Source: Bacteroidia bacterium (lineage in GTDB: Bacteria > Bacteroidota > Bacteroidia > AKYH767-A > JBBKVM01). Taken from it: DNA of 52,761 nucleotides. Of the stretch, positions 10,766 through 14,497 are shown one piece after another. The DNA is taken from NCBI GenBank assembly GCA_037969175.1, contig JBBKWX010000157.1, positions 1-52,761 of the forward strand. The letters are read 5' to 3'. Position numbers and translations under genes: made by a program. Below the pieces are notes generated by a model, which worked only from the letters and a program-made list of their open reading frames with translations, was not told where the DNA came from and made no database searches. Each line of letters opens with the position of its first letter. The stretch's first letter is position 1.

Positions 10766-12805
10766 CTAAACAATATCAGATTCATCAATTAGACCATAGT
10801 ACTTATCCAATGGGAGTTTGGTAGAGTTAATCCCTTCTTCCAAAATCAAATATGGAACATAGTTTAAATTTTGGTAACCGAAAAACACTCTATTTCCAAC
10901 TATTGTATTAGAAGCACAACGGTTGAATTCATCATTAACATCTCCTGCTTCTTTCACTCCATGTTCCATCGTCACAAACTTTATAAAAGATGTACATTCG
11001 TCAAGCGTATACAAATGCTTTGGGTTATAGCCGATCATGATGTTTGAGGATACAATGACAAACCTTGAATTCCAGAGCAAAATGCCTTGGCTTTTATGCT
11101 TCCGGTCAGGAAACTCAGGATCAATTATAGTTCCCGGGTTTTTAATTGTATTCCCGGTTATTGTCCCCGTCATTGAACCAATGAGTTTAATTCCACCTCT
11201 GGTATCATTTTCCAATTCCTTATTTGCAGGCATTTCACTTATATAAACATACGCAGGATTTATTATGACGTTGGATACAATTGTAAATTCAGAACAATCA
11301 TTTAATTGGATGCCACTTCTAGTTGTACTGCCGGAAGGAATATGAATATTACAAGTATTAAATAAGGGAGTTCCAGTAATAAGGTTTGAACTAATTGTTA
11401 TACTTTTCCATTTTCTGGCAGTTATGCCATAAGCTTCATTTCTATCGGCAGGATTCAGTCTTGCTCTTCCACTTCCAATGATTTGATTTCCATGTAATGT
11501 TAAACCGGCTGAATAAGAATGATACGTTTCTCTAAGGATGGGTAACTCACTTTCATGTTCATTGTATCCAAAATCTTCATCGTCTGTTTCTTCCAGAAAC
11601 ATATAAGGTAAATCAATTTCTTGTGTTGGAATACCTGACAAATACAAATCACTTTCTTCTGATGGAATTTGAAAATTAATATTCTCATCTTCAATAAAAC
11701 TTGCATCATTATCACATGTTATGGCAGCCTCAGGTTTGAAAATACCCCATTCACGAATTTGATTATTAATCACATGACAACTTAACTGGCCATATGGAAA
11801 AGACAAATGACCTCCGCCTTCATACGTAAGTTTGATACCTGCCTTACCTGCTTTATAGATGCGATTATTACTGATTCTGATATTGAGTACACCACTTGCT
11901 TCTAAGGTCACCGGTAAATCTTCACTGGCTTTCAAGCCTCTAACACCAATGCAGTTATCACCGGTATATTCAAAATAATTATTTTGAATAACAACTTGGC
12001 TTTGACCGGCACCACTGATAGTCTCTGAATAAAACCCCATTCCTGTGGTTGACTTTTTATCGTTTCTAACAAACTCACCAATAGAACCAGATGGTTCAAG
12101 TTCTTCTAACGGATGATATTCATAAGCCCCGTTTTCTTCCGTGTTTGGATTAAAACCTACAAAATTGTTTTCAAGAAGAATCTGTTTTGATTTAGATATA
12201 TCAATTGCACCTCCATTCATATTGTAAAACCTACAATTTCTGATCACTAACTCATCTGCAACAAATTTAAGTTCATGAGCATCTTCAAAAGTTAGGTTCT
12301 CCAGAATACAAAAACGAAGATGTTCACCGGTAGGATGAGTAAATATTGGTTTTATGAGTGCCACTTGTTGAGAAGTTACATTTGGACTTTGAGCAGTCAA
12401 TATTGGCAGGTAAACTGATTTAAAAACCGTACCACTACCCGAGCCAACCACATAAACTTGATTTCTTAAGACTACATTATCAAATAAGTATTCTCCTTCC
12501 GGAAAATAAAATCCCCACATTTGAAGATGAGATACTGTGTTTGGATCGCCTGGTAATTGGCTGTCATTCTCTGTTCCATCTTTTATGTTAACTTGTGGAT
12601 TCGTATTACCAAGTCCTGGATCGCCCCCTAAAAGATCCACCCATTCTTCAAGTACTCTAACGTATCTTGCTTGAAAAAGAAGTCCTAAATCATTTGTCAA
12701 GCTTGCTCCAGTATCTGGCTTGACAGAAATAAGAACTGCTTCCCAAGGAGTATCAGAATTTGCATATTTCACATGAGTAATAGTTGTTACGTCTATTGTG
12801 TTCAT
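10766..12805 (-). CDS. Right-handed parallel beta-helix protein (pectate lyase 3 / tailspike-like), no signal peptide
   Basis: FYFPEGEYL...LRNQVYVVGSGSGTVFK cap motif; repeated IxNNxF / IxSNxI / ITGNTI rungs. Confidence 0.8.
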   Translation of the reverse strand: MNTIDVTTITHVKYANSDTPWEAVLISVKPDTGASLTNDLGLLFQARYVRVLEEWVDLLGGDPGLGNTNPQVNIKDGTENDSQLPGDPNTVSHLQMWGFYFPEGEYLFDNVVLRNQVYVVGSGSGTVFKSVYLPILTAQSPNVTSQQVALIKPIFTHPTGEHLRFCILENLTFEDAHELKFVADELVIRNCRFYNMNGGAIDISKSKQILLENNFVGFNPNTEENGAYEYHPLEELEPSGSIGEFVRNDKKSTTGMGFYSETISGAGQSQVVIQNNYFEYTGDNCIGVRGLKASEDLPVTLEASGVLNIRISNNRIYKAGKAGIKLTYEGGGHLSFPYGQLSCHVINNQIREWGIFKPEAAITCDNDASFIEDENINFQIPSEESDLYLSGIPTQEIDLPYMFLEETDDEDFGYNEHESELPILRETYHSYSAGLTLHGNQIIGSGRARLNPADRNEAYGITARKWKSITISSNLITGTPLFNTCNIHIPSGSTTRSGIQLNDCSEFTIVSNVIINPAYVYISEMPANKELENDTRGGIKLIGSMTGTITGNTIKNPGTIIDPEFPDRKHKSQGILLWNSRFVIVSSNIMIGYNPKHLYTLDECTSFIKFVTMEHGVKEAGDVNDEFNRCASNTIVGNRVFFGYQNLNYVPYLILEEGINSTKLPLDKYYGLIDESDIV

Positions 12806-12840
12806 AATTTTTGTATTTTTATTTATTCAAAAGCAAATAG

Positions 12841-14497
12841 ATGAAAGTTTTTTTTTTTAGTGCAAGTTTTGTTTATAACTTTTTTTCAGGCATTTAGCCA
12901 ATCTTATCCACAAAAACTTTGGGATAAGCGATATGGGGGTTTTGGTGGTGACCAAACTTTTGCAGCACCTATAAAAATAGCTAAAGATGGCAATCTGCTT
13001 TTTTTAGGTGAGTGTCCAATTGGTCTAAGTGGAGACTTAAGTACAGTGTCTAAAGGTTCAGGAGATTTTTGGTTATTTAAAATTGACACTTCGGGGGTTT
13101 TAATTTGGGAGAAAGGAATTGGAAGCACTAACTGGGATTTTGCCAGAGATTTTGTTGAATTGGATGATGGGGGATTCCTCATTGTTGGGTACACTTCAGG
13201 AGGTATTGGTGGTGATAAAACAGAACCATCAAGAGGTGATGTAGATTTTTGGATAGTTAGGTTAGATTCATTAAGAAATATCTTATGGGATAAAACCTAC
13301 GGTGGTAATACCGAAGATGTGGTAAGGTCTGTTTCTATTACAAATGATGGAGGTTTTTTAATAGCAGGCAAAACAAGGTCTAAACAAGGATTTGATGTAT
13401 CCGAACCCGGCTTTAATCCTGGATTGATTACACTCCGCGACTTTTGGGTCTTGAAATTAGATAGTTTAGGAAATAAACTATGGGATAAGAGATATGGTAC
13501 TGATGGAGATGAAGAGTGTTATACTATCACAAATACATTGGATGGTAATTATTTGTTAATTGGATGGACTTCTAGTTATACAGGTGGGCATGTCTCTCAG
13601 CCTTCTAGGGGTGGGCAAGATTATTGGGTTTTAAAGATTGATACTATTGGTAATAAGATTTGGGATGCCCGTTTTGGTTCCTCAGATAATGATATGCAAA
13701 ATTATACATCCCAAGCCACACCAGATGGAGGGTTTATCACATGTGGTTTATCAAGTGGTCCTGCTGATTACGATAAGTCTGAAAATCTACGGGGAATGCG
13801 TGATTACTGGGTAGTAAAATGTGATAGCCTCGGTATTAAACAGTGGGATAAAACATTAGGTGGTGCGCATGATGAAGTATTTTCGGGTATTGCAATTATT
13901 CCAAGTGGTGGATTTTTAGTATATGGTTCATCAAAAAGTCAAAACACTGGAGATAAAACTCAGAATAACTGGCCAGGTTCCAGCAACAATATGTGGGCTG
14001 TAAAACTTAGTGAAAATGGTACTATTGTATGGGATGTGCGCTGGGGTGGTAATGTTGGAGAGTATGCAGCCAGTGCAGTTGTAAATAATGGAGTTTACTA
14101 TTTATATGGGGGAACTTTTTCAAACATTAGTGGTGATAAATCACAGAATAATTGGAGTGCAACTCCTGTTTCAAATCCTGCATCTGACCTGTGGATTGTA
14201 GCCTTTACAGAACCACCTCTTGGTTATGAAAATCTTGGCGATAGCAAGGGAGGTATTGATGTATTCCCTAACCCATTCAGAGAAATGCTTGAAGTTGGAG
14301 CAGAATTTAAAGAACCCGGAAAAGTCTTAGTAGAATTATTTGACATCACAGGCAGAAAAGTTTTTGGAAATTATTACTCTATCTCTACAGCTTTTTTTAA
14401 TAAAGAAATTGAACTTGGGTTTTTGAAAGCCGGAGTTTATTCTCTTGCTGTAACTACATCTCTTGAAAAAAGGACCAGGTTGGTAGTGAAAAAATAA
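12841..14497 (+). CDS. T9SS type A sorting-domain repeat protein; start frameshifted at T11 (12848-12858)
   Basis: About 8 repeats D(F/Y)W.(K/R).D..G...WDK.YGG; C-terminal VFPNPF...LFDITGR...GVYSL...RLVVKK. ATG 12841 is in frame only with T10 (or T13); the ORF track starts at GTG 12860. Confidence 0.85.

What the first reader, a model, noticed from the sequence alone, without database searches (positions are those of the whole stretch)
12841..12897. T11 tract puts the signal-peptide start of the cassette's T9SS gene out of frame: candidate phase-variation switch
Seen: ATG AAA G(T11)AG. With 11 T the ATG frame stops at TAG 12895-12897 after 18 aa. With 10 T it reads MKVFFLVQVLFITFFQAFS-Q, a typical Bacteroidota Sec signal ending before Gln and fused to the 545-aa ORF. 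The in-frame GTG 12860 start lacks the basic N-region. Established: T9SS cargo needs Sec export, and 5' homopolymers are classic slipped-strand ON/OFF switches. Inference: the gene is in an OFF phase, or this is a homopolymer sequencing error.
Basis: partly seen in the sequence, partly recalled or inferred. Interest (0 to 1): 0.7.

Follow-up and report, generated by a model that had tools for sequence, protein, structure and literature searches.

The report
T-run breaks secreted protein's start
A run of eleven T's sits inside the export signal of a secreted surface-protein gene of an uncultured sediment bacterium and puts its start codon out of frame, which looks like a classic slippage-type on/off switch, although no change in the run's length could be shown.

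Summary
ATG 12841, AAA, G, then T11 (12848-12858). The ATG frame stops after 18 codons. T10 or T13 fuses it to the 545-codon frame and gives a 551/552-aa protein with a signal peptide like those of its paralogs.

The gene encodes a beta-propeller-repeat protein with a T9SS type A C-terminal sorting domain. It has about ten full-length paralogs in this fragmented, metagenome-like assembly (254 contigs).

New context:
- Only five A/T runs of 11 or more exist in the 3.09-Mb genome. Three of them lie at this same position in three paralogs, each just after an ATG that needs T10. A fourth paralog has T9 in frame.
- The genome otherwise avoids such runs in coding DNA. Phe-Phe-Phe is all-TTT in 4 of 111 cases, against 34 expected.
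- No general homopolymer frameshift problem was seen in the assembly.
- A second surface gene (SprB repeats) is split from its signal peptide at a G8 run.

Not shown: any variation in tract length. Only low-depth contigs of public runs were available, and none bridges the tract.

Best reading (0.45): a slipped-strand contingency tract caught in an OFF phase, and leaky. Rivals: fixed frameshift, programmed transcriptional slippage, consensus error. It would be a new member of a known kind; moderate interest.

The parts
12841..12843 (+). ATG, the family-type start codon of the T9SS cargo gene; out of frame with the long ORF at T11
   Evidence: it aligns with the ATG of paralogs C222a and C93; it is in frame only at T10 or T13.
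12848..12858 (+). T11 homopolymer inside the signal-peptide coding region; the candidate slippage tract
   Evidence: one of 5 A/T runs of 11 or more in 3.09 Mb; paralogs C222a and C93 carry T11, and C28 carries T9, at the same position.
12841..12897 (+). 18-codon frame from the ATG to TAG 12895-12897, the product of the assembled T11 state
12860..14497 (+). Long ORF (545 aa from GTG 12860, stop included): beta-propeller-like repeats (about seven W-D/E-K..GG units by my reading) plus the C-terminal sorting domain
   Evidence: 3593 homologs at E<=0.001, and those with a source name are mostly called T9SS type A sorting domain proteins.
12887..12901 (+). Predicted signal-peptidase region Q-A-F-S | Q; the mature protein would start with Gln (codon 12899-12901)
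   Evidence: Inference from the alignment with paralog N-termini, which all end before Q-x-Y-P or Q-T-x-F. No signal-peptide predictor was available.
14261..14476 (+). T9SS type A C-terminal sorting domain (residues 468-539 of the 545-aa ORF)
   Evidence: PF18962, 32 bits against a cut-off of 27. TIGR04183, 27.3 bits against a cut-off of 23.
10766..12805 (-). Divergent neighbour: a 679-aa right-handed beta-helix protein with no evident signal peptide. Its ATG is 35 nt from ATG 12841, so its promoter must overlap the tract region
   Evidence: 5 copies in the genome, 4 of them seen beside a paralog of the T9SS gene.

Best explanation
The T-run is a hypermutable slipped-strand tract inside the signal-peptide coding region of a T9SS-secreted beta-propeller surface protein. 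At T10 (or T13), ATG 12841 gives a normal Sec signal peptide that is cut before Gln. The protein then crosses the inner membrane and is handed to the T9SS through its C-terminal domain. At T11, the assembled state, or at T9 or T12, the ATG frame ends after 5 to 18 codons. The long ORF can then start only at GTG 12860, with a crippled signal peptide and with ribosomes from the upstream ATG running across that GTG, so little or no protein should be exported (OFF). Replication slippage of one T would switch the gene back. Because the tract lies in the part that is cleaved off, changes in its length never alter the mature protein. The OFF state is probably leaky, because RNA polymerase also slips on runs of this length. 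Shown: the anatomy, the frame consequences, the homology of the ATG-proximal part, the shared tract in paralogs, and the genome-wide avoidance of such runs. Inferred: instability of the tract, reversibility, the loss of export in the T11 state, and any selective value.
For: (1) Frame logic: only T10 and T13 are ON. The T10 product matches the family's signal peptides and lengths.
(2) Three of the 5 A/T runs of 11 or more in the genome lie at the same 5' position of three paralogs (C157, C222a, C93), and a fourth paralog (C28) has T9 in frame. The flanks differ between C157 and C222a/C93, but the pure run is kept.
(3) The genome otherwise avoids such runs in coding DNA. In a crude set of 2214 ATG-ORFs, Phe-Phe-Phe is all-TTT in 4 of 111 cases against 34.4 expected from codon use, and Lys-Lys-Lys is all-AAA in 6 of 234 against 81.6 expected.
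(4) No sign of general homopolymer error. Among A/T runs of 8 or more with at least 80 open codons on both sides, 111 are intact. The 6 apparent shifts look by eye like gene junctions or frames on the non-coding strand. The T9 runs in four other N-termini (C23, C28, C101, C188) and many T8 runs are in frame. An A10 run (C39) and two G8 runs in housekeeping genes are in frame.
(5) A second, unrelated surface gene is split from its signal peptide at a G8 run, one of the three longest G/C runs in the genome. It encodes SprB repeats (PF13573, E 1e-37).
(6) There is no inverted repeat within 500 nt on either side, so there is no invertase-type switch.
(7) Precedents read: the Neisseria opa family, with CTCTT repeats in the leader-peptide coding sequence of about 11 gene copies (PMC3745409, passages); Gardnerella nanH3, with a poly-C run next to the signal-peptide region that causes annotation without a signal peptide (bioRxiv 10.1101/2020.09.16.300947, passages).
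Against: No tract-length polymorphism was seen, because no reads could be examined. All three long tracts are exactly T11, which freely varying tracts need not be. C222a and C93 are about 93% alike in the 60 columns around the tract, so they may count as one event. In C222a and C93 an upstream TTG is in frame at T11 and gives a plausible signal peptide (MVKTLARCIFFFLL...). There T11 may simply be the coding length, and the out-of-frame ATG may be a coincidence. Distant homologs lack the tract: 0 of 62 loci have T9 or longer near the start (2 of these loci come from the unpublished genome G018, and without them it is 0 of 60). T-rich runs arise easily in Phe/Leu-rich signal peptides of a 38% G+C genome. 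The organism is a free-living sediment bacterium, for which a selective reason for ON/OFF switching is not evident.
Confidence: 0.45

Rival explanations
1. Fixed, accidental frameshift. One paralog of a ten-member family has recently lost its start through a +1 slip in a tract that exists only because the signal peptide is Phe-rich. The gene is a young pseudogene, or it is made at a low level from GTG 12860. No switching has been selected.
For: The family is large and redundant. T8 and T9 runs are common by-products of Phe/Leu-rich signal peptides. Distant homologs have no such tract. No polymorphism has been shown. The nearest outside homolog, P0003 (65% identity), was also called from an internal M (MLITFFQ...) and so lacks the N-region.
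Against: The remaining 545 codons are free of stops and 100% of the length aligns with intact paralogs, so any inactivation is very recent. A pure T11 run is kept in three paralogs even though the genome avoids such runs about 9-fold. A T11 tract is expected to slip back at an appreciable rate (established knowledge on homopolymer instability), so the difference from a switch is one of selection and not of mechanism.
Confidence: 0.25
2. Consensus or sequencing error. The true length is T10 and the gene is simply intact.
For: The genome is a fragmented, metagenome-like assembly (254 contigs), and the public runs that hold it have a word depth of about 2-5 each. T11 is among the longest runs, where all platforms err most. 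All three T11 tracts would put the family ATG in frame at T10, which a systematic +1 overcall would explain at once.
Against: There is no length-dependent excess of broken frames at runs of 6 to 10. The genome has 18 runs called as 10 and 153 called as 9, a smooth fall-off. An in-frame A10 and two in-frame G8 runs were called correctly in housekeeping genes. From recall, PCR and short-read artefacts at long A/T runs tend to shorten them rather than lengthen them.
Confidence: 0.15
3. Programmed recoding. T11 is the conserved, functional length, and the protein is made from ATG 12841 because RNA polymerase (or the ribosome, by a +1 slip) changes frame on the U-run. This would set a low or regulated level of expression.
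For: The same length, T11, and the same 3n+1 offset of the ATG occur in three paralogs. An A11 run in Citrobacter rodentium tssM1 yields mRNAs with 10 to 15 A's and restores the frame (PMC4256274, abstract and section 8). Slippage on runs of 9 A or T in bacteria is described in PMC5009743 (one passage read).
Against: No RNA data exist here. C222a and C93 have an in-frame TTG at T11, which removes the need for recoding there. No stimulatory RNA structure is evident: the fold of 12815-12960 has z = -1.37, and 21 of 200 shuffles fold as well. No Rfam family reached its threshold. The frame needed is -1 nt or +2 nt in the RNA, whereas the tssM1 case mostly adds bases.
Confidence: 0.12

Closest known systems
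Neisseria opa (opacity protein) gene family
   Same: It is a multi-copy family of outer-surface proteins in which each copy carries a slippage-prone repeat inside the leader-peptide coding sequence. The repeat number sets whether the start codon is in frame, and the mature protein is unaffected because the repeat lies in the cleaved part (PMC3745409, passages; also described in bioRxiv 10.1101/2020.09.16.300947, discussion passage).
   Different: There the repeat is the pentamer CTCTT; here it is a mononucleotide T-run. There the bacteria are host-adapted pathogens with measured switching (about 1e-3 per cell per generation, PMC3745409); here the organism is an uncultured sediment Bacteroidota with no measured switching. 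The proteins are unrelated and are exported by a different route (T9SS).
Gardnerella nanH3 sialidase poly-C tract
   Same: A homopolymer next to the signal-peptide coding region makes some genome annotations start downstream and lack the signal peptide. The tract length was shown to vary within cultures (bioRxiv 10.1101/2020.09.16.300947, passages).
   Different: That tract is poly-C of 8-14 placed just after the signal peptide, in an actinobacterial cell-wall enzyme, and its variation was shown by clone sequencing. Here the tract is poly-T inside the signal peptide, and no variation has been shown.
Citrobacter rodentium tssM1 A11 transcriptional slippage site
   Same: A run of eleven A/T in a secretion-related gene separates two frames. 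RNA polymerase slippage yields a mixed mRNA population, part of which restores the frame (PMC4256274, abstract and section 8).
   Different: There the run lies near the 3' end and gives two functional length variants. Here it lies at codons 3-6 and would decide between product and no product. Slippage is untested here.

Membership tests
Slipped-strand (simple-sequence-repeat) contingency locus | A simple repeat lies in the 5' coding region or the promoter of the gene | tested here: met
   T11 at codons 3-6 after ATG 12841.
Slipped-strand (simple-sequence-repeat) contingency locus | Changes in repeat number switch the reading frame between a full-length and a truncated product | tested here: met
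   T10 and T13 give 551 and 552 aa; T8, T9, T11, T12 and T14 give 5 to 19 aa.
Slipped-strand (simple-sequence-repeat) contingency locus | The repeat length varies within a population or between close strains | tested here: inconclusive
   Only contigs of low-depth runs were served. One contig (X3, word depth 2.3) reads T11 but ends 9 nt beyond the run and does not count as bridging. No close strain was found in 41 related genomes or in the JGI metagenome scan.
Slipped-strand (simple-sequence-repeat) contingency locus | The repeat is kept against the genome's general avoidance of such repeats | tested here: met
   All-TTT Phe triplets occur 4 times against 34.4 expected, yet pure T9-T11 runs are found in 4 paralogs. 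The paralogs are kin and therefore not independent.
Slipped-strand (simple-sequence-repeat) contingency locus | Reversible, heritable ON/OFF switching of the phenotype | not testable with these tools
   This needs a culture or single-cell or amplicon data.
T9SS type A cargo protein | C-terminal sorting domain (PF18962 / TIGR04183) | tested here: met
   PF18962, 32 bits (cut-off 27); TIGR04183, 27.3 bits (cut-off 23). Twelve further open frames of the genome match only this part of the query.
T9SS type A cargo protein | N-terminal Sec signal peptide | tested here: inconclusive
   It is present only in the T10 or T13 reading. The assembled T11 sequence offers GTG 12860 with no charged N-region. 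This was judged by alignment with paralogs, not with a predictor.
SBBP beta-propeller lipoprotein, LipL53 family (NF047494) | A score above the family's curated cut-off | tested here: not met
   60.7 bits against a cut-off of 400. The repeats resemble SBBP-type blades, but the protein is not a member of that equivalog.
Programmed transcriptional slippage site | A run of 9 or more A/T separates two frames that together encode one protein | tested here: met
   The run-length criterion comes from PMC5009743 (passage) and PMC4256274.
Programmed transcriptional slippage site | Heterogeneous run lengths in the mRNA but not in the DNA | not testable with these tools
   No RNA run was listed.

The most novel reading that the evidence does not exclude
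An uncultured, free-living sediment Bacteroidota runs a small 'phasome' of secreted surface proteins on mononucleotide tracts placed in or next to their signal-peptide coding regions. The members would be several paralogs of one T9SS beta-propeller family (T9-T11) and an SprB-repeat protein (G8). The cell surface would then be shuffled combinatorially without changing any mature protein. In the cassettes with a divergent beta-helix gene, the same tract lies about 40-50 nt upstream of that gene's start, so one tract might tune both genes. Phase variation in this phylum is known mainly from invertible promoters (recalled, not searched). My two literature searches found no paper linking T9SS cargo with slipped-strand switching.
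Probability: 0.25. Interest if true: 0.6.

Novelty: new member of a known kind. Interest (0 to 1): 0.4.

Why it matters
If the tract really switches, it would extend the classic contingency-locus design, known mostly from host-adapted pathogens, to T9SS cargo of an environmental Bacteroidota. It would also show a whole paralogous surface-protein family wired for independent ON/OFF states. Practically, gene callers start this gene at GTG 12860 (the database protein P0002 has 545 aa) and so hide its signal peptide. Homopolymer-split 5' ends of secreted proteins in assembled genomes can therefore be misread as cytoplasmic proteins or pseudogenes. If it is a consensus error or a fixed frameshift, the finding is ordinary.

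Tried and rejected
Reads: the look-up of sequencing runs listed 4 runs of one sediment sample and 1 of a beach-sand sample. All are kept as contigs only, and no RNA holder was listed. Read laying showed that contigs of X1 stop at 12808 and resume at 13038, and contigs of X2 stop at 12788 and resume at 12891. About half of the 2.1-kb stretch is uncovered in each run, so these holes say nothing. X3 record 12 (12693-12867, no gaps) reads T11 but has only 9 letters beyond the run. X5 covers only 13758-13900.

Close relatives that could show other tract lengths: none in 41 related genomes (best 40% identity) and none in the JGI metagenome scan (best 41%).

Invertible-promoter switch: no inverted repeat in 12300-13300.

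Known RNA element or frameshift-stimulating structure: no Rfam match near its threshold (best 21.2 bits against 45), and the fold is not better than shuffles (z = -1.37).

Phe-rich leader peptide or attenuator (the 18-aa frame has 6 Phe): rejected. The part after the run is homologous, in the other frame, to the paralogs' signal peptides, and the downstream gene has nothing to do with Phe synthesis.

Bacteroidota -7 promoter motif TAnnTTTG (recalled): no exact match in 12806-12900 on either strand. The motif is also no more frequent in the window than in shuffles (57 against 55.7), so no promoter could be placed.

Earlier notes of this scan: none near the finding. The four on the same genome concern other loci.

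Full report
**1. What is in the sequence**

One search shows ATG 12841, AAA, G, eleven T's (12848-12858), A, then GTG 12860. The ATG frame ends at TAG 12895-12897 after 18 codons. The long open frame (12860-14497, 545 aa) is closed upstream by a TGA that overlaps the ATG, and it has no start codon before GTG 12860. I set the run to T8 through T14 in a script. Only T10 (551 aa) and T13 (552 aa) join the ATG to the long frame. T9 and T12 stop after 5 and 6 codons, and T8, T11 and T14 after 17 to 19.

**2. What the gene is**

The product carries a T9SS type A C-terminal sorting domain. PF18962 scores 32 bits against a cut-off of 27, and TIGR04183 scores 27.3 against 23.
- Before that domain lie about seven repeats of a W-D/E-K...G-G unit (my reading). 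They resemble SBBP-type propeller blades but fall far below the LipL53 family cut-off (60.7 against 400 bits).
- Of 8000 candidates scored, 3593 proteins match at E<=0.001. Those that carry a source name are mostly called T9SS type A sorting domain proteins of Cytophagales-like Bacteroidota.
- The window is contig C157 of a 3.09-Mb, 254-contig assembly rated 92% complete, with 38% G+C.
- The genome holds about ten full-length paralogs at 43-61% identity, plus fragments at contig ends. Twelve further open frames match only the sorting domain, so a T9SS is in wide use.
- The gene sits between housekeeping genes (mdh and gyrB downstream).
- It is paired head to head with a 679-aa beta-helix protein. 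The two ATGs are 35 nt apart.
- That beta-helix gene has 5 copies. Four of them are seen beside a paralog of the T9SS gene, so the pair is a repeated two-gene cassette.

**3. Is ATG 12841 the real start?**

Yes, as far as homology can tell.
- Paralogs and close homologs begin with M, then R/K/Q/H, then a hydrophobic core, and end with a small residue before Q-x-Y-P-x-K-[IL]-W-D.
- P0004 begins MRFFFLQLLFITFFQGFSQ and the C28 paralog begins MRFFFLQVLLVTFFQAHSQ. The T10 reading here gives MKVFFLVQVLFITFFQAFSQ.
- The T10 product length (551 aa) matches the family range of 549-560 aa.
- From GTG 12860 the N-terminus would be MQVLFITFFQAFS, with no charged residue and a 7-residue core. That GTG also lies inside the frame translated from the ATG. 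I infer poor export from it; this is not shown.
- The closest outside homolog, P0003 (65% identity), was also called from an internal M (MLITFFQ...). That hints at the same break in another assembly, but its DNA could not be fetched.

**4. The tract in its genome**

The genome has 153 A/T runs of 9, 18 of 10, 4 of 11 and 1 of 12. Its longest G/C runs are three of 8.
- Of the five A/T runs of 11 or more, three lie at the homologous 5' position of three paralogs: this gene, C222a (T11) and C93 (T11). A fourth paralog, C28, has T9 in frame.
- In C222a and C93 the run follows ATG CA. As here, the ATG is at a 3n+1 offset and would be in frame at T10. However, an upstream TTG is in frame at T11 and gives a plausible signal peptide, which is the gene caller's choice in P0006.
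- C222a and C93 are separate paralogs: 81% identity over 255 aligned nt, but about 93% in the 60 columns around the run. They may share the tract through recent gene conversion.
- Of the other runs of 10 or more, one (C39, A10) is in frame in a 216-codon frame. By the open-frame table, nearly all the others lie in leaders, after hairpins or in short frames. One (C56) sits in a repeated region that I did not resolve.

**5. Is the assembly prone to homopolymer errors?**

I found no sign of it.
- I looked at A/T runs of 8 or more that have at least 80 open codons on both sides. Of these, 111 are intact and 6 look shifted.
- On inspection the 6 are three gene junctions or terminators and three frames that look like the non-coding strand. 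This was judged by eye and not checked by homology.
- The share of apparent shifts does not rise from length 6 to 8 (74/1935, 25/521, 4/102).
- T9 runs in four other N-termini (C23, C28, C101, C188) and many T8 runs are in frame with an upstream ATG.
- There are no other coding runs of 11 to compare with, so an error specific to that length cannot be excluded.

**6. Avoidance**

I used a crude gene set of 2214 ATG-ORFs of at least 120 aa. In it, TTT makes up 67.7% of Phe codons, yet Phe-Phe-Phe is all-TTT in only 4 of 111 cases (34.4 expected). Lys-Lys-Lys is all-AAA in 6 of 234 cases (81.6 expected). Long A/T runs are therefore counter-selected in coding DNA of this organism. Pure T9-T11 runs kept in four members of one family stand out against that background. 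Kinship weakens this as a statistical test.

**7. A second case**

On contig C8 a G8 run, one of the three longest G/C runs, separates an ATG-started signal peptide (MQKIYNKITLTFTIMLLSVNSLFGQ...) from a 696-codon frame of SprB repeats (PF13573, E 1e-37). G7 or G10 would join them. The other two G8 runs are in frame in genes that look housekeeping: one plsX-like and one asparaginase-like, by my reading of the translations. In both broken frames the gene concerned encodes a secreted surface protein, which fits contingency loci better than random error. The numbers are small.

**8. Wider homologs**

In 62 loci of distant homologs (at most 41% identity; 54 from metagenome contigs and 8 from related genomes, 2 of these 8 from the unpublished genome G018), the longest T-run near the start is 8. 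None has T9 or more; without the two G018 loci the count is 0 of 60. The tract is thus a feature of the close paralog group only.

**9. Reads**

The decisive test could not be run. Five public runs hold parts of the stretch. All are served as contigs with a word depth of about 2-5, and none is on record as RNA. No contig bridges the run with 31 letters on both sides. One contig (X3) reads T11 without gaps but ends 9 nt after it.

**10. Other mechanisms checked**
- No inverted repeats lie around the start.
- No Rfam family came near its threshold.
- No RNA fold was better than shuffles.
- A recalled Bacteroidota promoter motif could not be placed.

**11. How it most likely works**

The anatomy is that of a slipped-strand switch placed in the cleaved leader. 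This is the design of the Neisseria opa family (PMC3745409, passages), and it is close to the Gardnerella nanH3 poly-C tract, which likewise makes annotations lose the signal peptide (bioRxiv 10.1101/2020.09.16.300947, passages). I rate this reading at 0.45, with the assembled state being OFF.

The OFF state should be leaky. An A11 run in C. rodentium tssM1 gives mRNAs with 10-15 A's (PMC4256274, abstract and section 8), and runs of 9 A/T slip in bacteria (PMC5009743, one passage).

| Rival | Confidence |
|---|---|
| Accidental fixed frameshift in a redundant paralog | 0.25 |
| Consensus error | 0.15 |
| Conserved T11 used for programmed slippage | 0.12 |

The identical length T11 and the identical 3n+1 offset of the ATG in three paralogs are the main unexplained point. 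They fit a systematic +1 overcall, programmed slippage, or chance combined with gene conversion.

**12. Novelty and score**

The mechanism class is well known. Its use in T9SS cargo of an environmental Bacteroidota would be a new member of that class. My two searches found no paper that links T9SS cargo with slipped-strand switching: one search returned 2 unrelated papers and one general review. Without length variation the case remains circumstantial. Interest: 0.4.

Noticed in passing
G000 contig C8:10379-10386 (G8 on the minus strand); ATG at C8:10497; long frame C8:8321-10411 (-); locus L089: An SprB-repeat surface protein gene is split from its ATG-started signal peptide by a G8 run, one of the three longest G/C runs in the genome. 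G7 or G10 would fuse the two frames. It is a second candidate homopolymer switch, or a second homopolymer error.
   Followed up: partly
G000 contigs C222:493-503 and C93:186-196 (loci L003, L090): Two paralogs of the T9SS gene carry T11 at the same 5' position. The family-type ATG is out of frame by the same one base, but an upstream TTG is in frame at T11, so two of the three phases could give the same mature protein.
   Followed up: partly
window 10766-12805 (-) and G000 contigs C171, C93, C222: A 679-aa right-handed beta-helix protein without an evident signal peptide is paired head to head with the T9SS propeller gene in a repeated two-gene cassette. There are 5 beta-helix copies; here the two starts are 35 nt apart. 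Its function and the reason for the pairing are unknown.
   Followed up: partly
whole genome G000: Long A/T runs are strongly avoided in coding DNA: all-TTT Phe triplets occur 4 times against 34 expected, and all-AAA Lys triplets 6 times against 82 expected (crude ORF set).
   Followed up: yes
G000 contig C139:5291-5302: The longest homopolymer of the genome (T12 as assembled, A12 on the gene strand) ends one base before the ATG of a 537-codon frame. It is an extreme A-rich leader, and its length could affect translation initiation.
   Followed up: no
G000 contig C56:22554-22563: An A10 run lies within a region of repeated ~35-nt units (…ttttccaaaatttatttttc…cccgcaa…) that has a 177-codon open frame on one strand. 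Its nature was not resolved.
   Followed up: no
window 13758-13900: A contig from a beach-sand metagenome of a different study matches 143 nt of the gene with no differences. The same or a very close organism probably occurs there, but the tract is not covered.
   Followed up: no
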